A DNA stretch of 64,000 nucleotides from a virus. Its lineage: Duplodnaviria; Caudoviricetes. The notes beneath the pieces are model-generated. The model was not told where the DNA came from. It did no database searches and worked only from the letters and a program-made list of their open reading frames with translations. A program made the translations under genes and the position numbers. The stretch spans positions 1-64,000 of IMG/VR virus record IMGVR_UViG_3300032007_000055; one strand, written 5' to 3'. Positions 1 to 10,931 of this stretch are shown here, one piece after another (within the stretch, counting starts at the first letter, position 1; each line of letters starts with the position of its first letter).

Positions 1-113
1 TGAATAGCATTATACATTACAGATTGTCTAGTACTACTTAATAAAGAATCCATACATTCTTCTAAATATTGTTCATCATTGTATACTGCTATTAATATAG
101 ATAATTTATACAT
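1..113 (-). CDS. Family 2 glycosyltransferase, N-terminus only (runs off window start; not in ORF track)
   Basis: Manual translation MYKLSILIAVYNDEQYLEECMDSLLSS matches the GT2 start pattern SIIIPVYN-x-E-x-YL-x-ECLDSLL; AAGGAG SD upstream. Confidence 0.7.
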   Translation of the reverse strand, partial: MYKLSILIAVYNDEQYLEECMDSLLSSTRQSVMYNAI

Positions 114-134
114 TATTAGAACTCCTTTATGATA

Positions 135-146
135 TATTCTAATGTG
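135..146 (-). promoter_or_regulatory. Putative late promoter CACA-TTAGAA-TA
   Basis: NACA-N6-TA motif 22 nt before GT2 start. Confidence 0.45.
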
Positions 147-3200: not shown

Positions 3201-5395
3201 CTACAAAGATTGAGATTCAGTCATTTACTGTACCGTTGATCGTGTTCTTGAATTATCTTTTTGGATGGGATAGAGTTGCTTCTTATTTCCCTGAAAACGA
3301 GATAGAATTCTCTGAAAAACCAATTCAAGGAACAAATAAACTAAGCATTAAATTTTATGACGGATATTTGTATTACAATCCGTATCCTATTAATGGATTG
3401 TTGATGCTCAATGGTTTGACAGAAATCGATACAGAAAATTACAAGTACGAAGATTTGAATAATCAATCTTTGTATATGGATTACGCTTTCAAGAAGTTTA
3501 AAACAAGAAATGTTGCTAAGGGTTGGGTTACAGCTAAAGAAAATATGCTTGATCTCAAAACTCTTCAAATTCTTGAAGCTCTTGGATTACCGACAGATTT
3601 CTTGGAAATATTCTTGTATTGTAATGATCTTCTTGTTGATAACCAAGTTAAATCTGAATCTGATATAAGCAACTATCGTATTCGTTCTAACGAAATTATT
3701 GCTGAATGTTTGTACAAAACGCTGAATAAACACTATATGATCTTTAAGAAAAAGACTGGTAAGAAAACTACCATGTCTATTCCTCAGAACTCAGTAATGG
3801 CAGCAATATTCAATACGAACATATTAGCGAATTATGATTCTATTTCTCCAGTTGGCGAAATTCGTTCTTTGAGTCAAACTACATTCAAAGGACCAGGTGG
3901 AACCAATCTTGAACAAGCATTGACTCTTAAGAAACGCGCTTTCGATTCTTCATTCGTAGGAACGTTTTCGGTATCTACTCCAGATAACTCTAACGCTGGT
4001 GCTGTAAAAGAGTTAACTATAAACTGTAACGTAATAAATACTTTGGGATTTATTGGTGAACCAATTAAAGATCCTAAAGATATGCACTTAACAAATATTT
4101 CATCAATTGGTGAAGCTATAGTTCCATTTGCAAATAAGGTAGATGACCCTACTCGTATTTCTTATGGTTCTACACAGAATGCTCACGTTGGCGGTGTTAT
4201 AAATTCATCTCTACCTCCTATACGAACTGGAGTAGAAAAGAATATTAAATATCACACTAGTGATAGATTTGTTCGCCGGGCTAAAGATAATGGTGTTATC
4301 ACCGATGTTGACGAAGTTGGTAAACGAATATTTGTTACTTATAAATCTGGTGAAAAAGAAGTTGTAGATTACAATAATACAATGTTAAAGAACTCAGATT
4401 CATTCAATCAAGCATCTTTCACTTGTTTTGTAAAACAGAACGAGAAAGTAAAGAAAAATCAAATTCTTGCTGCAGATGCTAGATTCTTCAAGTACGATCC
4501 ATTAACTAAAGAAATCGTTTATACTCAAGCTATCAATGGTATGTTTGGTATTTTTGAAGGTTCATATACAGAAGATGATGCTGATTTGATTACTGCTACA
4601 TTTGCCGGAAAACTCAAAATGGACTTTACAAAGTGCAAGCAAATATCGATTAAACCTATGGATACTCTCATTAGCTATAAAAAAATAGGCGATAGAGTTT
4701 CTCTTGGTGATCCTTTGATTGTATTTGACGAATATGGATCTTTTGAAGAAGCACAAGACGATGACGATGAATCATTGTTTAAATTACTTACTGAAAATCT
4801 TGATCCTGATGTTGTTGCTCAGATGATACACCAAACTCCTAAAGCTCCATTGTCTGGAGTTATTAGTGATATAAAGGTTTACTGGACTGTTCCTGTAAAT
4901 CAAATGAGTAAATCTATAGGCAAATTCGTTAATGAATACTCTACAAAGATTAAGAAAGAAATAATTGAAGAAGAAAAATTTACAGGTAAGAAGTCTGCAA
5001 GACGTCCTGAAGTTGAAGTTACATCTTTAGGAGACACTATCCATGGTCGTATTAACGGAGCTGAAGTTGGTGATGAAGGTGGAATTGTTATAGAATATTA
5101 TATCTCCAATGATGATGTAATGTCTACAGGAGATAAGATAGCCCTTAACTCTTCATTGAAGTCTATCAATTCGTATGTCGTAGATAAAAAACTTGAACCT
5201 TATACCGAATCTGGTCAAAAACTTGATGGTATTTTCAGTTTGATTTCTATCAATGCTCGTATGGTTAACTCTGTTTGGTATAATGGTTGGATTGGTAAAA
5301 TCCTATATACTATAAGTAAACGATGGGCTAAGAATTTCTTACAAGAAATAGGCGAGACTATACCTGAAAATGAACGTGAAATTATAATAAAATAA
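260..5395 (+). CDS. rpoB: Virion RNA polymerase beta-like subunit, large N-terminal piece (phiKZ gp178-like)
   Basis: Degenerate RpoB motifs in order: TFKGPGG..RAFDSSFVG (fork loop), DDPTRISYGSTQ (DDxNRALMGxNMQ), EGSYTEDDADLI (GYNxEDS), GDKIALNSSLKS (GDKxxxRHGxKG), LDGIFSLISINARM (DxxxNPxGxPSRM); ends before the beta C-terminal clamp. Confidence 0.85.
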   Translation: MNNILSEEAKSFKILRPVTGKNQRKPMITYTKKLMECVYLNLARTQEELVKGLYSLFGPNGIRKSFKRLYFPKRFIWTSTLYVKPRIQEAINEKETGDSFKKLCPDFVGMYKNRIMDKRNLIVDFTKIFDLVIPDDPAVMIKQTVFDYIESVWPELLCYVLLHNDKHNKDNDIETSDEALLEKPEDAKNYIASIGELLKEYDKELNGDTETKDRRVLIKNGEQPGVNDPYSVEDFLRNTNSSIDNPLNEMSDEEWKYVVDIITRSIESFEEKLLGKTQVFAMGGPAFGLSAAGFDKFIVSIPYTLKSNKFVNLQIIESRLPIPRNIKRNPTLIYQINFMQLLYKIYEGYYTGHSNNPFINEMLKYDFSFHIYAENGVGFVMNMREIVTYFKYKPNQVSRLLYNRFRMLTMCNTGVINDQDLDKIEEENISKEIDGYFSKNADVFKDSDDDAKKKLQKDLEPIIKEDMALKTIIKAKQDQTDQVEVIDKVEETTDEKISHMILSKNIVAESKKSMDLLSALHNKFSKASTTKIVSDNQDEAEDVTLTSQDYDDILNSNSGDSSDEEEVVDEYDENSDKYVANDASENADTSELDFDVKEEGELDDATAFEEEYEFEDNDTVEEVEEADYVELKPTTKGPVKLSNSTSKKPVRTPAEEKRINLLKEKYKSIKLEGKTIEEIIGNSSKIDIDTGETKIDEKSADTTIGNFNIDDLQRSYIKNNYQSDIINAVRSLSMNKETPLYITDVKVEDASNQMNDKYTYTFKLEDENKHKHTLKFDVPKLNDTGTTKMNGNSVFLKKQLIKKPIVKIGPDKVYVTTELNSYQIMRSGILLNKGSEVIRKLFNEYLGKYPNVAVERGNCKEDNKDYLTTLEYDILANNYFFVRINDENSKFGEHVEIFFSQSAIRERIKKLNISTGFENNIIPDNILPLAINYTTNTLISIDMTKNSSVNSTILGLLHDTLKDDELFAYVKTIKTPKRRISTKIEIQSFTVPLIVFLNYLFGWDRVASYFPENEIEFSEKPIQGTNKLSIKFYDGYLYYNPYPINGLLMLNGLTEIDTENYKYEDLNNQSLYMDYAFKKFKTRNVAKGWVTAKENMLDLKTLQILEALGLPTDFLEIFLYCNDLLVDNQVKSESDISNYRIRSNEIIAECLYKTLNKHYMIFKKKTGKKTTMSIPQNSVMAAIFNTNILANYDSISPVGEIRSLSQTTFKGPGGTNLEQALTLKKRAFDSSFVGTFSVSTPDNSNAGAVKELTINCNVINTLGFIGEPIKDPKDMHLTNISSIGEAIVPFANKVDDPTRISYGSTQNAHVGGVINSSLPPIRTGVEKNIKYHTSDRFVRRAKDNGVITDVDEVGKRIFVTYKSGEKEVVDYNNTMLKNSDSFNQASFTCFVKQNEKVKKNQILAADARFFKYDPLTKEIVYTQAINGMFGIFEGSYTEDDADLITATFAGKLKMDFTKCKQISIKPMDTLISYKKIGDRVSLGDPLIVFDEYGSFEEAQDDDDESLFKLLTENLDPDVVAQMIHQTPKAPLSGVISDIKVYWTVPVNQMSKSIGKFVNEYSTKIKKEIIEEEKFTGKKSARRPEVEVTSLGDTIHGRINGAEVGDEGGIVIEYYISNDDVMSTGDKIALNSSLKSINSYVVDKKLEPYTESGQKLDGIFSLISINARMVNSVWYNGWIGKILYTISKRWAKNFLQEIGETIPENEREIIIK

Positions 5396-5400
5396 AAAAA

Positions 5401-5432
5401 AAACTGAGGCACGAAAAATGTGCCTCAGTTTT
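5401..5432. terminator. Bidirectional intrinsic terminator
   Basis: AAACTGAGGCAC/GTGCCTCAGTTT hairpin with A and T tracts between convergent genes. Confidence 0.85.
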
Positions 5433-5438
5433 ATATTT

Positions 5439-6008
5439 TTACTTCAAATGTGTTGGTTTTAGAATAAGAACCATTGAATCATCCCAAGTTGAAATTACTT
5501 TATTATCTTTTAAAAATCTTAAGAATTCATCTGTTACAGAAGTCATTCTATGTTCAGACACAATGTGGGAACTGTCTCCAGATATTGCATAAGCGCGATT
5601 TGTTTCAAATATATGAAATCCTAATAAATAACGTGCTTGTTCATCAAGTGTTATGAATTCTACGGTTGAAGAAACACCCATTTCTTTTTTCTTTTGATAA
5701 CTATAATCATCTGAAATTGGAAGTAAAATTTGTTTAGTGAAATAATGTCTAGTCATTTTTAATACATCGGTAAATTTATATTTCTTTGCTGTTGGAACTG
5801 TTCCGTATATTACGTTTTCGTCACTCCAGTCATATTGGGTCAATTGTTCACGAATTAATGCAAGTATATACACTTTAAATTGATCACTAGAAGCTTCTAA
5901 AAGTGTTTTATCTTTCATTATATTTAATTTCTTTTTAAGCTTATCTTTTTCAATTTTGCAGCGTTTAGCAAAACTCATTTTACTAACGTGTGAGTCTCCT
6001 CTAAACAT
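5439..6008 (-). CDS. Hypothetical protein
   Basis: 189 aa ORF, AGGAGG SD, followed by terminator. Confidence 0.75.
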   Translation of the reverse strand: MFRGDSHVSKMSFAKRCKIEKDKLKKKLNIMKDKTLLEASSDQFKVYILALIREQLTQYDWSDENVIYGTVPTAKKYKFTDVLKMTRHYFTKQILLPISDDYSYQKKKEMGVSSTVEFITLDEQARYLLGFHIFETNRAYAISGDSSHIVSEHRMTSVTDEFLRFLKDNKVISTWDDSMVLILKPTHLK

Positions 6009-6055
6009 AAATAAACCTCCTAAGTATTTCGAATATTATATGTAATTTAAAAGAA

Positions 6056-6080
6056 GGTAAAATTATCTACGATTAAAACA
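6056..6080 (+). repeat. 25-bp outer inverted repeat, left copy
   Basis: GGTAAAATTATCTACGATTAAAACA; 24/25 identical to reverse complement of 7919-7943. Confidence 0.9.
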
Positions 6081-6231
6081 TGAAACGAATTATGGTTTTA
6101 CTGATAATGATTTAAACAACATGACATTAGCTGAACTAGAGATGTTTATTAACAATATGATCGATACCTCGATGAGTTATAAAGATACTAATGGCACGAA
6201 GTATAATGAAAGTGATAAGGTCAGTGGGTTT
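6081..6231 (+). repeat. 151-bp inverted repeat, left copy
   Basis: Base-by-base identical to reverse complement of 7627-7777. Confidence 0.95.
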
Positions 6232-6678
6232 GATGTGTATAATTACGGAACATACGACTCTTTTAAAAGTGCTAAATCTTATTGGAAAACAGAAAAAAGC
6301 AATCGTCAAACAGAATATGATACAGCTGTTGCAAATTATAATACTTTTTATTCTGATTATATGTATTGGCTCGGAAATGAAGCGTATAACCCGTGGTTTG
6401 ACTGGGGTGAAAAACAACAATTAAGTAATCTCGAAACAGTCAAAAATAATGCAAAAACAGCATTAGATAACGCAAAAAGCAATTATGATAAGTGTGATAA
6501 ATTGATGGAATATTATGATGCATTAAAACCAAAAGCTAAAAATATTGCAAATAGTATATTTGGTAATGAGCAATACGGTTTAAAAATAAAGAATATATAC
6601 ACTGTATACCAGACTATATCAGATTCTGCAAAACAAGTGGCTCACAGATTAGAAAAATTATTGGGAACGAAATTATAA
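6121..6678 (+). CDS. Paralog B of putative invertible cassette (possibly silent); probable virion protein
   Basis: Identical N-terminal block MTLAELEMFINNMIDTSMSYKDTNGTKYNESDKVSGF and homologous C-terminal helix shared with 6727-7800; no SD before ATG. Confidence 0.7.
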   Translation: MTLAELEMFINNMIDTSMSYKDTNGTKYNESDKVSGFDVYNYGTYDSFKSAKSYWKTEKSNRQTEYDTAVANYNTFYSDYMYWLGNEAYNPWFDWGEKQQLSNLETVKNNAKTALDNAKSNYDKCDKLMEYYDALKPKAKNIANSIFGNEQYGLKIKNIYTVYQTISDSAKQVAHRLEKLLGTKL

Positions 6679-6693
6679 AAAAAAAACAATATT

Positions 6694-6725
6694 AAAATGT
6701 GGGCATTATAGCCCACATTTTTTTT
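6694..6725. terminator. Bidirectional intrinsic terminator inside the cassette
   Basis: AAAATGTGGGC/GCCCACATTTT hairpin between the convergent paralogs. Confidence 0.85.
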
Positions 6726-6726
6726 A

Positions 6727-7800
6727 TTAAATTCTGTTACCTAATAAACGTTCTAATGCTTTAGCTTTGACTACAGCATTATTGTGTTCTTGTGTTATTA
6801 TATTGTGTAATTTTTGTATTTTGCGACCAAATGATTCGTTTCCGTTTATACTACTTGCTATTTGTATAGCTTTATTTTTTAGTGGTTCAAATGTCGTACT
6901 TAACTCTTTCTTGAGTGTACCCATAAACGAATGTTTTTCGACTATTACGAGGTATAACGATTTCGCCCACTCATATAGCCAGTCGTTATATTCTGGAGCG
7001 ATAGCAGATTCCGCAATTGGATATAAATCAACATTCCATGGGGTATTATTCTTATAGTTTATAATACTTAATTTGTCGATTTTTGCAACATTGTTTTGGA
7101 GTTTTGATCTAAAATTAGCGACACTAGAGCCGTTATCATCACTACCATAAACCCTGTTCCAATACTCTTTTCCATTTCTATCCCCTCCTATAGAAGAGTA
7201 GTCGCGATCAAAAGTCCAATATGGTCCATTATGATAAAGAGTATATCTAAAGTCCCAATTACTTGCCCAATAACTATCCCATCGAGCTGGATATTCATAA
7301 CCATTATACTCTTCCCAATGTGCAAAACCTTGACCACCATAAGTTTGCCAACGATATCCTCTAGTGCCACTTACCGTTAAGTCCGATATATCGTTAAAAT
7401 AAGCATTGATATATACCTTTAGTTTATGAATCGTCATTATTGTATATGCAGAAGGCATCACATGTTCTTCTATGATACCATCTTTGTAGCGTAATGACCA
7501 TTCGAAACTATTGCCCCAAAAATCTTTTTCTAATTCACAATAAGTTACTCTACTATTTGGTCCAAAATATTTATCATATATATAGTTATATGTGCTATTA
7601 TCCATAGAATTTGAAGTAATTTTATTAAACCCACTGACCTTATCACTTTCATTATACTTCGTGCCATTAGTATCTTTATAACTCATCGAGGTATCGATCA
7701 TATTGTTAATAAACATCTCTAGTTCAGCTAATGTCATGTTGTTTAAATCATTATCAGTAAAACCATAATTCGTTTCACCTACAGTTATATTACTCTTCAT
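6727..7800 (-). CDS. Paralog A of putative invertible cassette; frame open up to 7938, true start uncertain
   Basis: 357 aa from ATG 7800; 46 more stop-free codons upstream; Tyr/Trp/Gly-rich middle; C-terminus homologous to 6121-6678. Confidence 0.75.
   Translation of the reverse strand: MKSNITVGETNYGFTDNDLNNMTLAELEMFINNMIDTSMSYKDTNGTKYNESDKVSGFNKITSNSMDNSTYNYIYDKYFGPNSRVTYCELEKDFWGNSFEWSLRYKDGIIEEHVMPSAYTIMTIHKLKVYINAYFNDISDLTVSGTRGYRWQTYGGQGFAHWEEYNGYEYPARWDSYWASNWDFRYTLYHNGPYWTFDRDYSSIGGDRNGKEYWNRVYGSDDNGSSVANFRSKLQNNVAKIDKLSIINYKNNTPWNVDLYPIAESAIAPEYNDWLYEWAKSLYLVIVEKHSFMGTLKKELSTTFEPLKNKAIQIASSINGNESFGRKIQKLHNIITQEHNNAVVKAKALERLLGNRI
7627..7777 (-). repeat. 151-bp inverted repeat, right copy
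   Basis: Identical to 6081-6231 in opposite orientation. Confidence 0.95.
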
Positions 7801-7918
7801 CGGGTCGGTTATTATGTTTTGTAATTTATATAGACTCTTATTTACAGTATTCTTAATATTATTATCATAATTAGTTTTATTACCACCAGTTAATTCAGAA
7901 GATCTATCTATGTATTTT

Positions 7919-7943
7919 TGTTTTAATCGTAGACAATTTTACC
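7919..7943 (-). repeat. 25-bp outer inverted repeat, right copy (overlaps ATG at 7945-7943)
   Basis: GGTAAAATTGTCTACGATTAAAACA on minus strand. Confidence 0.9.
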
Positions 7944-7984
7944 ATTTTATAAAATACGTTAATTTCTACTATATATTGTTTTTC

Positions 7985-8036: not shown

Positions 8037-10931
8037 ATGGTTACAAATGATAGAATGAAAGGCCAGCATTATAGAGCGTTTTTAACAAGATTGGCCTCAA
8101 AAAGAAATGTTGAAAACATAATTTCTGAATTAACAGAATATTACAATAACATAAACAAAAACATCGACAAATTGTTTCAAAGTATTACTGAACGTCGTAC
8201 ACAGATGCTTGATGGTTTGGCAGCTATTTATGAAAAAACAAAACATTTCGAATACGTTTTGAATCACTTCAAATTGGAAGTAGATGCTCATATTCTAGAG
8301 AAATTTAACAAAGCTATTGAATCTTTCGAAAACGGCGTTGGTGTTTATGTAATCCCGTATGAGAAAAATCTTTTCAATCACAGAACGTCCACAGATCAAA
8401 AGATTTCTGATGTAGATCGTATAAATACTTTAAACGAATGGGAACGTGCTATAAACATTGTGCCGTCATCTCTTGGTATTCAGTGGTATGGTGGAAAGAT
8501 TAAAGACCGAACTATTGTTAATATTCTCAAGAATACACTTCGTATTGTCAAAGTGAATACTTCTGCTGGAAGCAAGAATGAAGATTACATAAATAGCAAT
8601 CTTATTCTTGAGATTTTTATATACAGTGCATCTGGTGGAATTGTTTGGTTGCAACTTGGCCAAAATGCTACTTTTGGTTTTAGTATCATTGTTAAGTATC
8701 AATCTGAGTTGTCTAAGTATAACATGAAGATCAATACAGAATCATACAATACCATAAAAGAATTCGATTTGAACACATTCGATTTCGATATGGTTCTCAA
8801 TACAATGATCGAGCAAGAAGATGTTAAAAACGGAAACGTTTACATCAAGATCAAAACAAACATTCCTGCAAGCAATGAATCTGGCAAAGATCATTACTTG
8901 TTAACTCGTGATGGTGGAGACACTGATCCGAGAAACATGAAAAAATACAATGCTAAGCGAGCCATAAATCAATTGGCTAATAAACTTGTTTATCAAGACA
9001 ACAAAGATGTTGCTTTCTATAAACATAGAGATGAAGATCTTAGTACACTTTACAATAACAGTAATCATTTGACAGCTGACAAAACTCCAAACTTGTTGAA
9101 CGCTCAGGATGGCGTATATGATTACGATATCCTCAACAATGCTGAATTAGATGAAAAATTGTTTACTGTTGAATTGAACTGTAAGAATAAACAGATCAGC
9201 CAAATTATCAAAAATCCATTTGAAGAATCAATGAATACATTGTCAGATATAGTTTCTGGTTATGTTATTGCTAATTCAGATATGTTCTCTTCTAAGAACT
9301 TCTTCGAAGCTGAACCGGATTTCAATGTTAAATTCTCAGAGAATGGAGAAATTAAATATTATCAAGGTCAGCAAGTTATTGATTTATCTGACGAAACACG
9401 TGTTGGTGAATTGTCTCCATTGTTGAAAAACGAAACAATGTACGATGTTACAAACATTGACTCTGTAGAAAAAACATTCGTTGTTCCTTCTGAAACATCA
9501 TATGGTAAAGAGTGTAATGATACAACAGTTAAAAACAACATTTCTAATAATGTAAACTTCGAGAACATGTTGTCTACAGATAGCAAGAATGAACAGCTTA
9601 AACAAACTGGAGAATTGCTCAATAATGATAAATCGGATCCTCTAACAATTTATTGTGTTAAAAAGATTTCTGATGATTGTACTATCATCTCTACTTCGGC
9701 CGGTGTTTATCGCTACAATTTCAATACTACAGATCCTGAGAAATTTAAAACTAGAATCAATTTGGCACTTGGTGCCGAATCTCAAGCCACAAAAGTGTAC
9801 GATATTGTAGTTGAACCAAAGAATAATTATATTTTCTTCGGTACAGATTGTGGTATTCAGCGATATGACAAAGACATAAATAAAACATATGGTCAAGGCG
9901 ATCCTAACAATTTCACAACTGGAACACCAACAGGTCATTTTACAACATTATTTGTCGAACCGAATGGTTTAGTAATAGCGATGCGCGATCCTACGCTTGA
10001 ACCAACTAATGGTCTGGCTATAATCGACGGTTTAAAATATCCTAGATTATTCAACGTTAACCAAACACGTTCAAATCAACCAAATAAATTTGTTTCAGTT
10101 TCAACATATTTTGGCGAAAATCAACCGAAGTATTATACAGCAACTGAAGAGATCGTAAAATGTTTGAATGGCGTTCGAACAAATGGAATGTATAAACCAT
10201 TGACTGATATTGATTATGAACGAATAAATGATCATAATTACAACGTAGTCGTAGATCAAATAAGCAAAAAAATATTCTTCTACATTAAGAATGGTAAACT
10301 ATTAGTTGCTAGTGCTTTCCCTGAGGACACCGATGAGAATGCATTTACGTTTACGAATTTCCAATTTGTCGAAGGTTTAAAGAATCGTTTCATAAATTCT
10401 GTAGTTAAAGTCAATCGTAAATTGTACATTGGTACCGATGACGTTTGTTATTGTTACGATATTGATACTGAAGCTCTTGAAGAATTGCAGTTCGATTATT
10501 CTACAGAAGTTAACCACAGAATGGAAACAAGAAAGATTTATTTCTTGGAAACAATCGATAATATATTCGATGCCGACATGGCAGATCGTCATCCGACAAA
10601 TTGTTTAATCTATTATTGCAACAACAATTTATTTGTAATTCCTAAAGATTCTTGGGATACAGAAGTTGTAGCTATCGCATATGTAAACAATATGTATTAC
10701 GTTCTTACAACTTCTGGCGACGTTTATAAATACAATTCAAAATTCGAACCCAATGGTATCATTACCACAATCTCTATACCTCGAGACATATCTTATGTAG
10801 ACAACGTTCTTCTTTTGTCTTATGACGATATGTTAACAACAGACTTCACTACAAGAAACCAATACAACGGTTTCGCGGTAAATACTGTTGCTAAAGATGG
10901 TGTAATTACTCAAAACATTTTGAATCGTTAA
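8037..10931 (+). CDS. Probable virion (tail/baseplate) protein with beta-propeller-like C-terminal half
   Basis: 964 aa, AAGGAG SD, late-type motif; recurring short strands such as YIFFGTDCGI, KLYIGTDD, YYVLTTSGDVY. Confidence 0.5.
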   Translation: MVTNDRMKGQHYRAFLTRLASKRNVENIISELTEYYNNINKNIDKLFQSITERRTQMLDGLAAIYEKTKHFEYVLNHFKLEVDAHILEKFNKAIESFENGVGVYVIPYEKNLFNHRTSTDQKISDVDRINTLNEWERAINIVPSSLGIQWYGGKIKDRTIVNILKNTLRIVKVNTSAGSKNEDYINSNLILEIFIYSASGGIVWLQLGQNATFGFSIIVKYQSELSKYNMKINTESYNTIKEFDLNTFDFDMVLNTMIEQEDVKNGNVYIKIKTNIPASNESGKDHYLLTRDGGDTDPRNMKKYNAKRAINQLANKLVYQDNKDVAFYKHRDEDLSTLYNNSNHLTADKTPNLLNAQDGVYDYDILNNAELDEKLFTVELNCKNKQISQIIKNPFEESMNTLSDIVSGYVIANSDMFSSKNFFEAEPDFNVKFSENGEIKYYQGQQVIDLSDETRVGELSPLLKNETMYDVTNIDSVEKTFVVPSETSYGKECNDTTVKNNISNNVNFENMLSTDSKNEQLKQTGELLNNDKSDPLTIYCVKKISDDCTIISTSAGVYRYNFNTTDPEKFKTRINLALGAESQATKVYDIVVEPKNNYIFFGTDCGIQRYDKDINKTYGQGDPNNFTTGTPTGHFTTLFVEPNGLVIAMRDPTLEPTNGLAIIDGLKYPRLFNVNQTRSNQPNKFVSVSTYFGENQPKYYTATEEIVKCLNGVRTNGMYKPLTDIDYERINDHNYNVVVDQISKKIFFYIKNGKLLVASAFPEDTDENAFTFTNFQFVEGLKNRFINSVVKVNRKLYIGTDDVCYCYDIDTEALEELQFDYSTEVNHRMETRKIYFLETIDNIFDADMADRHPTNCLIYYCNNNLFVIPKDSWDTEVVAIAYVNNMYYVLTTSGDVYKYNSKFEPNGIITTISIPRDISYVDNVLLLSYDDMLTTDFTTRNQYNGFAVNTVAKDGVITQNILNR

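What the first reader, a model, noticed from the sequence alone, without database searches (positions are those of the whole stretch)
6056..7945. Candidate invertible phase-variation cassette: two convergent paralogs sharing a perfect 151-bp inverted repeat
Seen: 6081-6231 is identical to the reverse complement of 7627-7777; a second 25-bp inverted repeat (6056-6080 / 7919-7943, one mismatch) flanks it. The genes share an identical N-terminal block and homologous C-termini (LKPKAKNIANSIFGNEQYG..LEKLLG vs LKNKAIQIASSINGNESFG..LERLLG), with unrelated middles, and a bidirectional terminator separates them. The left copy equals the right copy with an exact in-frame 141-nt deletion between the two repeats, and has AAG where the right copy has ATG. 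Inference: the right end is the expression site and the left a silent alternative; recombination between either repeat pair would fuse the other variable domain in frame, as in Mu G / P1 C tail-fibre inversion. No recombinase is in the window, so host or phage homologous recombination or a trans-acting invertase would be needed. The cassette sits beside a likely tail/baseplate gene (8037-10931). I do not know of such a switch in phiKZ/AR9-like phages.
Basis: partly seen in the sequence, partly recalled or inferred. Interest (0 to 1): 0.88.

Follow-up and report, generated by a model that had tools for sequence, protein, structure and literature searches.

The report
Swappable end-cassettes of a giant phage protein
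The perfect 151-base inverted repeat is real and marks a pair of reserve gene cassettes that related giant phages shuffle, by recombination across that repeat, onto the end of a roughly 3,400-residue protein, a Mu/P1-like logic not reported for this kind of phage; live switching within one phage population could not be tested.

Summary
The IR 6081-6231 / 7627-7777 is exact and is the only long repeat in the 90-kb contig, which is a jumbo-phage fragment (IMG/VR) that CheckV rates 32% complete.

The two convergent genes belong to a tiny family. Each member has a conserved N block, an unrelated variable body and a conserved C block.

In close relatives the same modules form the in-frame C-terminus of a 3,242-3,435-aa giant protein. 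The "141-nt insert" (7778-7918) is the tail of that giant gene. Over 224 nt it is 100% identical to a giant gene on two JGI contigs.

Evidence for recombination:
- Arms are 100% identical in four of five complete pairs and 99% in the fifth. Between phages they are 91-94% identical.
- Relative to a 282-kb relative, the flanks are collinear but the inter-repeat segment is inverted.
- One body (P0009, identical protein) sits in both slots in two metagenomes.
- Body types move between stand-alone and giant-fused positions.
- A roughly 20-kb inversion with its ends in the cassettes separates two genome arrangements.

Neither cassette in the window has a Shine-Dalgarno site, and both start modules are broken. 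The giant gene has a strong one. No invertase was found.

Best reading: reserve cassettes of a shufflon-like switch driven by homologous recombination.

The parts
5439..6008 (-). 189-aa flanking gene of unknown function. It marks the '189-side' slot and is not a detectable recombinase.
   Evidence: It has a strong SD. It has no Pfam, PHROG, NCBIfam or PDB match. Orthologues flank cassettes in L001, L010, L012 and L013.
6042..6080 (+). Vestigial start module of the left cassette (MVKLSTIKT-type). The ATG is mutated to AAG (6054-6056), and a 5-nt deletion breaks the frame before the N block.
   Evidence: The same slot carries ATG in L001 and ACG in L012 and L013, and the module is deleted in L010.
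6081..6234 (+). Left arm of the inverted repeat. This is the conserved N block of the module (ETNYGFTD...KVSGF) and the likely crossover zone.
   Evidence: 151 nt are exact and 154 nt match with one mismatch. The arms are 100% identical within this phage and 91-94% identical to relatives. N-block dN/dS is 0.06-0.39.
6235..6678 (+). Left variable body (type a) plus the conserved C block and stop. The conventional ORF is 6121-6678 (185 aa) and has no SD.
   Evidence: The body is 72-74% identical in protein to the C-terminus of the 3,242-aa giant protein of the 282-kb relative. The AF2 model is an all-helical bundle with pLDDT 82.
6694..6721 (.). Bidirectional intrinsic terminator between the convergent cassettes. 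It lies inside the invertible segment.
   Evidence: An equivalent hairpin is present in L001 and L002.
6727..7623 (-). Right variable body (type b) plus the conserved C block.
   Evidence: Its orthologue P0002 (59-64% identical overall, 51% in the body) sits in the opposite slot, next to the 195-aa gene, in the 282-kb relative.
7624..7777 (-). Right arm of the inverted repeat (N block).
7778..7918 (-). 'Linker': a remnant of the 3' constant part of the giant gene (QKYIDRSSEL...KLQNIITDPMKSNITVG). It stays open in the module's frame. It also holds the ATG at 7800, which has no SD.
   Evidence: The same peptide joins the giant protein to its module in P0011, P0015 and the 282-kb giant. Window 7921-7698 is 100% identical over 224 nt to L007/L008 18988-19211, inside the 3,435-aa gene.
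7919..7957 (-). Start module of the right cassette. The ATG at 7945 reads MVKLSTIKTKIHR and then stops, +1 out of frame with the linker and module. It has no SD.
   Evidence: The same out-of-frame junction is present in L002 (P0008).
8037..10931 (+). 964-aa flanking gene of unknown function. It marks the '964-side' slot.
   Evidence: Orthologues flank cassettes in L002 and L010.

Best explanation
Region 6042-7957 holds two reserve cassettes of a multi-cassette recombination system. That system varies the C-terminal 200-400 residues of a giant phage protein of about 3,400 aa.

Each cassette has three parts: a conserved N block, an unrelated variable body and a conserved C block. The N block is the 151-nt repeat.

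Cassettes lie in alternating orientation in fixed slots: next to the 964-aa gene, next to the 189-aa gene, next to a 298-aa gene, and fused in frame to the giant gene.

Homologous recombination between the identical, in-frame N blocks, and between the linker plus N block shared with the giant gene, inverts the DNA in between. That moves bodies from slot to slot without breaking the reading frame. Flips within a pair span 1.4-2.1 kb, and inversions between pairs span about 20 kb.

Only the giant gene has a proper ribosome-binding site. The two window cassettes have decayed starts and most likely serve as silent or weakly expressed donors.

Shown: the anatomy, the fusion to the giant protein in relatives, the homogenisation of the arms, and both orientations and slot exchanges among natural relatives.

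Inferred: that exchange is frequent enough to act as a switch, that it runs on homologous recombination rather than an unseen invertase, that the window copies are silent, and that the variable domain serves host recognition.
For: - Family anatomy and rarity: there are 10 representatives among 1.8 billion proteins, all with the same N and C blocks and unrelated middles.
- Fusion to the giant protein: modules are fused in frame to giant proteins P0011 (3,432 aa), P0015 (3,435 aa) and the 3,242-aa gene of the 282-kb contig. The joint is the same linker peptide that the window's 141 nt encode.
- Shared sequence with a giant gene: 224 nt are 100% identical between the window (7921-7698) and the giant gene in L007/L008.
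- Homogenised arms: arms are 100% identical in four of the five complete pairs (window, L001, L002, L010) and 99% in L005. Between phages they are 91-94% identical.
- Inversion relative to L001: the flanks are collinear (5335-6234 at 86%, 7627-7921 at 93%), while 6081-7778 is inverted.
- Same body in both slots: P0009, with identical protein sequence, is on the 964 side in ERZ919334 and on the 189 side in ERZ1029111. The IR there is only 94 nt.
- Slot exchange: body types a, b, c, e and f each occupy different slots in different phages, including stand-alone versus giant-fused positions.
- Large inversion: the gene order of the 282-kb phage equals that of the window/L010/L005 type after one inversion between the 964-side cassette and the giant gene.
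- Translation signals: the giant gene has AAGGAG seven bases before its ATG. No stand-alone cassette has an SD, although 48 of 65 long ORFs in the contig do.
- Decayed starts: the start modules of most stand-alone copies are broken in different ways, while every giant junction is in frame.
- Selection: N and C blocks have dN/dS of 0.06-0.39 and bodies 0.5-1.05, so the modules are functional at least at times.
- Frame preservation: an in-silico flip keeps both ORFs open, at 336 and 206 aa.
- No site-specific enzyme: no serine or tyrosine recombinase, RecA or reverse transcriptase is found in the contig. No recombinase Pfam hit appears among the genes within 10 kb of four related pairs.
Against: - There is no read-level evidence that both orientations coexist in one population.
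- Long contigs of 90, 248 and 282 kb run straight through the repeats. One orientation therefore dominated in each of those samples.
- Repeats of 151-207 nt exceed common k-mer and read lengths. An assembler could have chosen the orientation of the middle segment wrongly in some contigs. The 94-nt pair (L010 versus ERZ1029111) is the least exposed to this, but the second contig's DNA could not be read.
- Only 32% of this genome is in hand, and the complete relatives could not be searched. An invertase elsewhere is not excluded.
- Both window ORFs are intact from a conserved internal Met (MTLAELEMF), so independent weak expression is possible.
- The giant protein and the modules have no recognisable family or fold. 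Host recognition is a guess from the pattern of variability.
- That L007/L008 belong to the same phage as the window rests on 224 identical bases only.
Confidence: 0.6

Rival explanations
1. The genes are ordinary paralogues. Both cassettes are independent genes translated from internal starts (ATG 6121 and ATG 7800). The perfect repeat results from occasional gene conversion. The inversions seen among relatives are rare evolutionary accidents at dispersed repeats, not a functional switch.
For: Both ORFs are intact and their N and C blocks are under purifying selection. A conserved Met (MTLAELEMF) begins many gene calls in relatives. Long contigs cross the repeats, which suggests one dominant orientation per sample. 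Some stand-alone copies (P0003, P0004, P0006, and the 436-aa gene in L005) keep an in-frame MVKLSTIK start.
Against: No stand-alone copy has an SD in a genome where about three quarters of long ORFs do, whereas the giant gene has one. The start modules decay in several independent ways. Arm identity in all five pairs (100% in four, 99% in one), against 6-9% divergence between phages, needs frequent exchange. An identical body is found in both slots in two samples. The alternating orientation and the in-frame arms are what a shuffling system needs.
Confidence: 0.25
2. One reading: a self-contained two-state invertible cassette in which the right end is the expression site and the left copy is silent. 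It is flipped by a trans-acting site-specific invertase acting on the repeats, and it switches a tail-fibre specificity as in Mu G or P1 C.
For: The two nested inverted repeats, the convergent layout and the AAG-for-ATG change are real. The logic of alternative variable 3' parts is upheld by relatives.
Against: The right ATG (7945) is out of frame and stops after 13 codons, and ATG 7800 has no SD. The extra 141 nt is a remnant of the giant gene, not a dedicated leader. No invertase is present in the contig or near four related pairs. The 25-39-nt outer repeat has no dyad symmetry and is missing from the giant-side arm of the pairs in L001 and L005, which nevertheless have perfect arms. IR length varies from 94 to 207 nt. 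There is no similarity to tail-fibre families.
Confidence: 0.08
3. The repeat is an assembly artefact. It is close to a 151-nt read length, and either the repeat or the orientation of the middle segment was created by the assembler.
For: The 151 nt match a common read length. De Bruijn graphs cannot orient a segment between inverted repeats longer than k without read pairs.
Against: The repeat ends at a real indel on one side and, on the other, at a single mismatch followed by divergence. The same architecture, with repeats of 94, 152, 205, 207 and at least 135 nt, occurs in five other assemblies from different studies. The flanking homologous C blocks and the outer repeat are not identical, as expected of true paralogues.
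Confidence: 0.03
4. Programmed +1 ribosomal frameshift: translation starts at ATG 7945 (MVKLSTIK), slips +1 on AAA-A, and continues through the linker into the module. That would make the right gene a full-length expressed protein.
For: A +1 slip of tRNA-Lys on ATT AAA ACA re-pairs perfectly and opens a 403-codon frame. The same junction is conserved in the 282-kb relative. The linker frame is open for 47 codons, with a chance of about 0.07.
Against: The open linker frame is explained by its origin as giant-gene coding sequence that is kept identical by conversion. ATG 7945 has no SD. Other copies break the frame differently: -1 in P0005, and a deletion in L010 that puts the linker out of frame. 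No stimulatory stop or rare codon lies at the slip site.
Confidence: 0.04

Closest known systems
Invertible tail-fibre segments of temperate phages and plasmids: Mu G (Gin), P1 C (Cin), e14 P (Pin), and above all the p15B Min multiple-inversion system
   Same: A constant 5' part of a large gene is joined to alternative variable 3' parts that lie in inverted orientation. The crossover lies inside coding sequence, so every product stays in frame. The non-joined variable parts are silent. In p15B several cassettes give many isomers.
   Different: No Din-family serine invertase and no 26-bp dyad-symmetric crossover site were found. The repeats are 94-207 nt, variable in length and perfectly homogenised, which points to homologous recombination. 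The cassettes are spread over about 20 kb that includes an RNA polymerase beta subunit gene. The host gene is a 3,400-aa protein with no similarity to tail fibres. The phage is a jumbo phage with its own multisubunit RNA polymerase. [quoted passage not shown]
R64-type shufflon (Rci tyrosine recombinase, sfx sites, PilV C-termini)
   Same: Several cassettes in alternating orientation supply alternative C-terminal ends to one expressed gene through nested inversions.
   Different: No tyrosine recombinase and no short sfx-like sites were found. Here the repeats are long coding blocks.
Recombination-driven flip-flop isomerisation across long inverted repeats in phage genomes (Burkholderia jumbo phage Matilda terminal segments; the ~30-kb invertible region of Anabaena cyanophages)
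   Same: Inversion of a segment between long identical inverted repeats without a dedicated invertase. Both isomers are viable.
   Different: As described in those reports, the repeats flank whole gene blocks, and no change to a coding sequence is described. Here the crossover is inside a gene and changes the protein that is made.
Silent-cassette antigenic variation (Neisseria pilE/pilS, Borrelia vlsE)
   Same: There is one locus with proper expression signals, and there are several start-less copies with conserved flanking blocks and variable middles. Homologous recombination is the driver.
   Different: Those systems use non-reciprocal gene conversion of small segments in bacteria. Here whole bodies appear to move by reciprocal inversion, in a virus.
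Gene-altering programmed inversions catalogued in bacteria (Milman et al. 2023, PMC9881135)
   Same: Inverted repeats lie inside paralogous coding sequences and yield alternative alleles. Specificity-determining genes are the usual targets, and a few loci lack a nearby recombinase.
   Different: That survey covered bacterial genomes, with prophage tail fibres among the targets, and named viruses as future work. It does not list this family or its giant-protein context.

Membership tests
Din-type invertible segments (Gin/Cin/Pin/Hin/Min) | A serine invertase gene lies next to, or inside, the invertible segment. | tested here: not met
   PF00239 and PF07508 have no match at E<=1 in the 90-kb contig. 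The adjacent 189-aa protein has no Pfam, NCBIfam or PDB match. No recombinase Pfam hit appears in the gene tables within 10 kb of four related pairs. Only 32% of the genome is in hand.
Din-type invertible segments (Gin/Cin/Pin/Hin/Min) | Short (about 26 bp) dyad-symmetric crossover sites of fixed position lie at the repeat boundary. | tested here: not met
   By inspection, the outer 25-39-nt repeat has no dyad symmetry. It is absent from the giant-side arms in L001 and L005. The repeat boundaries differ between pairs, at 94, 151, 152, 205 and 207 nt.
Din-type invertible segments (Gin/Cin/Pin/Hin/Min) | A constant 5' gene part is joined in frame to alternative variable 3' parts in inverted orientation. 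| tested here: met
   Giant::module fusions convergent with a stand-alone module occur in L001 and L005. In the window only a 141-nt remnant of the constant part is present.
Din-type invertible segments (Gin/Cin/Pin/Hin/Min) | The switched gene is a tail fibre (homology to the Mu S / P1 S / T4 gp37 class). | tested here: not met
   The modules, the giant protein and the 964-aa neighbour have no significant Pfam, PHROG, NCBIfam or PDB sequence match, and the module model and Atlas look-up gave no usable fold match.
Din-type invertible segments (Gin/Cin/Pin/Hin/Min) | Both orientations coexist in one clonal population. | not testable with these tools
Both orientations are seen only between samples and relatives.
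R64-type shufflon | An Rci-like tyrosine recombinase is present. | tested here: not met
   PF00589 has no match at E<=1 in the contig.
Homologous-recombination flip-flop across inverted repeats | Long, identical inverted repeats are homogenised within a genome. | tested here: met
   Arms are 100% identical in four of five pairs and 99% in the fifth, against 91-94% between phages.
Homologous-recombination flip-flop across inverted repeats | Both isomers of the segment are found in nature, with collinear flanks. | tested here: met
   Window versus L001. P0009 in both slots. Arrangements A and B differ by one inversion of about 20 kb. Caveat: the orientation chosen by an assembler could be wrong for repeats longer than the reads.
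Homologous-recombination flip-flop across inverted repeats | A recombination system (phage or host) is available. | tested here: inconclusive
   No RecA-family match in the 90-kb fragment. The rest of the genome and the host are unknown.
Silent-cassette systems (pilE/pilS type) | One copy has expression signals and the others lack them. | tested here: met
   The giant gene has a strong SD. No stand-alone copy has an SD, and most have broken starts. Expression itself was not measured.
Diversity-generating retroelement | A reverse transcriptase with a template/variable repeat pair that differs at adenines. | tested here: not met
   PF00078 has no match. The bodies are unrelated sequences, not point-mutated copies.

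The most novel reading that the evidence does not exclude
A clade of lytic, RNA-polymerase-encoding jumbo phages from rumen and gut samples carries a shufflon-like store of silent cassettes. Ordinary homologous recombination across in-frame repeats keeps re-tipping a 3,400-aa virion protein with unrelated domains. As a side effect it flips about 20 kb of the genome, essential genes included. This would be a programmed specificity switch without a dedicated invertase, a kind not described for lytic phages.
Probability: 0.4. Interest if true: 0.85.

Novelty: new variant of a known kind. Interest (0 to 1): 0.72.

Why it matters
Inversion switches that change a coding sequence are known in phages from temperate ones (Mu, P1, p15B), where a dedicated invertase drives them.

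If this locus works as proposed, giant phages with their own transcription machinery vary the end of a huge protein in a different way. They would draw on a store of at least ten unrelated domains and use only long in-frame repeats and general recombination.

That would give a concrete handle on three things:
- how uncultivated jumbo phages change specificity;
- why their genomes differ by large inversions with ends in these genes;
- why assemblies of such phages break at these loci.

It also flags a dark-matter giant protein and its variable tip as the likely interface with the host.

Tried and rejected
- **Annotated phage genomes:** blastn of the locus found nothing.
- **IMG/VR scans:** scans with the right protein, with P0015 and with the 24-nt N-block anchor found nothing beyond the window's own record.
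- **Whole-record search of the 282-kb relative for recombinases:** the record is not held.
- **Own-genome look-ups of the exact window proteins:** these are withheld.
- **Structure of the right protein:** AF2 without an alignment gave pLDDT 34, and the Atlas model is equally poor with no usable neighbours.
- **Structure of the left-type module:** it folds as a long helical bundle (pLDDT 82). Foldseek against PDB and BFVD gave only generic coiled-coil matches with E above 0.1.
- **Atlas search of the giant protein:** it failed.
- **Giant protein and its neighbours (2,672, 298, 273, 528, 512 aa):** no significant family was found; the only rows are chance-level (PHROG E 0.007, PDB E 0.004 or worse).
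- **189-aa neighbour as a Hin-sized invertase:** rejected, because no resolvase signal appears in any search.
- **DGR:** rejected.
- **AR9-type late-promoter motif:** absent upstream of all stand-alone cassettes and present once upstream of the giant gene. It is too frequent, at 165 hits in the contig, to weigh much.
- **Programmed frameshift:** considered, and kept only as a low-odds rival.
Full report
**1.

The window contains an exact 151-nt inverted repeat, 6081-6231 / 7627-7777. It extends to 154 nt with one mismatch.

It is the only repeat longer than 26 nt in the whole 90,043-nt contig. The contig is a linear IMG/VR virus record of 33.6% G+C that CheckV rates 32% complete. It carries a 1,711-aa phage RNA polymerase beta subunit just upstream, so it is a fragment of a jumbo phage.

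- A second repeat, 6042-6080 / 7919-7957 (39 nt, 87%), lies outside the first.
- The right copy has exactly 141 nt (7778-7918) between the two repeats, and the left copy has none.
- AAG at 6054-6056 faces ATG at 7945-7943.
- A bidirectional terminator lies at 6694-6721.
- The two proteins share 50 of 51 residues at the N block and 37% over 59 residues at the C end, with unrelated middles.

**2. The starts are not what they seem**

The ATG at 7945 reads MVKLSTIKTKIHR and then stops. It is +1 out of frame with the main ORF.

The longest conventional ORFs start at ATG 7800 (357 aa) and ATG 6121 (185 aa). Neither has a Shine-Dalgarno site, while 48 of 65 long ORFs in the contig have a strong one.

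**3. A tiny family with conserved ends and unrelated middles**

An exhaustive search of 1.8 billion representatives found ten proteins. The word-indexed search found nine.

All share the N block (ETNYGFTD...EMFINNM...KVSGF) and the C block (..GNExYG..LEKLL..). Their middles cannot be aligned. At least ten body types are seen.

No Pfam, PHROG or NCBIfam family matches.

**4. The modules are the exchangeable end of a giant protein**

One hit, P0011, is a 3,432-aa protein on a 247.8-kb scaffold. Its last ~395 residues are a complete module.

The 3,242-aa gene of a 282-kb relative ends in a module of the window's left type. The whole module is 78.5% identical by tblastn and the body 72-74%.

P0015 (3,435 aa, JGI contigs L007/L008) ends in a module of a third type.

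In all three, the joint between the giant protein and the module reads ...QKYIDRSSEL...KLQNI.TDPMK.NITVGETNYGF. This is the peptide encoded by the window's 141-nt 'insert'.

At the DNA level, window 7921-7698 is 100% identical over 224 nt to L007/L008 18988-19211, inside the giant gene.

The 141 nt are therefore a decapitated piece of the giant gene's 3' constant part. They are joined out of frame to a small start module. The giant gene itself is not in the 90-kb contig.

**5. The architecture recurs and the arms are kept identical**

Convergent pairs with a terminator between them occur in several relatives:

| Locus | Pair | Repeat |
|---|---|---|
| L001 | P0002 with giant::module | 152 nt, 100% |
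| L002 | P0008 with P0005 | 207 nt, 100% |
| L005 | giant::module with a 436-aa gene | 205 nt, 99% |
| L010 | P0009 with a 185-aa gene | 94 nt, 100% |
| L003 | P0004 with a cut partner | at least 135 nt, cut by the contig end |

Over the first 150 nt, the two arms of a pair are identical in every complete pair tested. The same arm type differs by 6-9% between phages, and the two arm types are only 64-67% alike.

Independent evolution would have left about ten differences per pair. The arms are therefore being homogenised by recombination faster than they diverge.

**6. Both orientations and slot exchanges exist in nature**

- *Inversion relative to L001.* The window's flanks are collinear with L001 (5335-6234 at 86%, 7627-7921 at 93%), while everything between the arms is inverted. 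In that phage the right-type body sits next to the 195-aa gene, and the left-type body is fused to the giant gene.
- *Cassette replacement.* L010 is about 95% identical to the window over 16 kb of flanks and has the same gene order, but it carries a third body (P0009) on the 964 side.
- *The same body in both slots.* The identical P0009 protein occurs in another metagenome (ERZ1029111) on the 189 side, with the same 42-nt spacing to its convergent partner. That is the flipped state, and there the repeat is only 94 nt.
- *Movement between slots.* Body types a, b, c, e and f are each found in different slots in different phages, including stand-alone versus giant-fused.
- *A large inversion.* The gene order of the 282-kb phage is: ligase, 964, F, F, 298, 273 ... 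RNAP, 195, F, giant. It equals the order of the window/L010/L005 type (ligase, 964, F, F, 189, RNAP, GT680, 522 ... 273, 298, F, giant) after one inversion of about 20 kb between the 964-side cassette and the giant gene.

**7. Which copies are expressed**

The giant gene has AAGGAG seven bases before its ATG. It also has one AR9-type motif upstream, but that is weak evidence because the motif occurs 165 times in the contig.

No stand-alone cassette has either signal. Their start modules are broken in different ways:
- ATG changed to AAG or ACG;
- a 5-nt deletion;
- +1 and -1 junctions;
- outright deletions in L010.

Every giant junction is in frame. From the Met of MTLAELEMF onwards, all copies are intact.

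N and C blocks are under purifying selection (dN/dS 0.06-0.39). The bodies run at 0.5-1.05 (small samples).

This pattern fits donors that are selected when they are joined to the giant gene. It does not exclude weak independent expression.

**8. Mechanism**

- No serine or tyrosine recombinase, RecA or reverse transcriptase is detectable in the contig.
- No recombinase family appears among the genes within 10 kb of four related pairs.
- The neighbouring 189-aa protein, which is Hin-sized, shows no resolvase signal.
- The repeats vary in length and boundary and are long and perfect.
- The outer short repeat has no dyad symmetry and is missing from giant-side arms.

I therefore favour homologous recombination by phage or host enzymes. 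An in-silico flip keeps both frames open, at 336 and 206 aa.

**9. Function**

This is the weak point. The left-type module is predicted with confidence (pLDDT 82) as a long helical bundle. It has no significant structural neighbour. The right protein could not be modelled.

The giant protein has no family. A more distant homologue (35% identity) lacks the module.

A role in host recognition is inferred only from the pattern: conserved scaffold, wholesale-variable domain, and cassette exchange.

**10. Caveats**

- Read-level data could not be obtained.
- Long contigs cross the repeats, so one orientation dominates per sample.
- For repeats longer than the reads, an assembler's choice of orientation could be wrong.
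- Only a third of the genome is available.

**11. Comparison with known systems**

The logic is that of Mu G, P1 C and above all p15B Min, and of the R64 shufflon. The defining enzymes and sites of those families were looked for and not found.

Recombination-driven flip-flop across repeats is known in phage genomes. As described in those reports, no change to a coding sequence is involved.

[quoted passage not shown] The bacterial survey of gene-altering inversions named viruses as future work.

I rate this a new variant of a known kind.

Noticed in passing
window 1-141; L008 21873-22009; L010 17502-19544: The contig's left end holds the 5' end of a 680-aa glycosyltransferase gene that runs off the contig, as L010 shows. 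A 141-nt stretch there is 96.5% identical to the end of the giant-gene contig L008, probably the start of a paralogous glycosyltransferase. Both contigs end at that same point.
   Followed up: partly
L008 1813-9831 (-) and 10001-20308 (+); L005 1-5832 and 6001-16299: Two divergently transcribed giant genes (about 2,670 aa and about 3,435 aa) share a 170-nt conserved intergenic region. Neither has any significant Pfam, PHROG or PDB sequence match.
   Followed up: partly
L001 3314-3928: The 282-kb relative has a 204-aa gene with PHROG matches, including a weak HNH endonuclease hit, just upstream of the RNA polymerase beta gene. In L010, a close relative of the window, that position is taken by the glycosyltransferase gene instead. 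It is possibly a homing endonuclease insertion.
   Followed up: no
L003/L004 1-5713: In these contigs the RNA polymerase beta gene is followed directly by an intact cassette (P0004, in-frame MVKLSTIKT start). The 189-aa gene present in the window is absent.
   Followed up: no
window 5400-5432: A second bidirectional terminator (13-14 bp stem, T runs on both strands) lies between the RNA polymerase beta gene and the 189-aa gene.
   Followed up: no
L006 8001-17413: A distant relative (35% identity) has a 2,711-aa giant protein without the module. An unrelated 423-aa gene follows it five bases after the stop, and the RNA polymerase beta gene comes next. The cassette system therefore seems confined to the closer clade.
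   Followed up: partly
L003, L009, L011, L012, L013 and the ERZ1029111 contig: Many short contigs of this phage clade end inside or right beside the cassette repeats. That is what an assembly graph does at a repeat or at a structural polymorphism.
   Followed up: no
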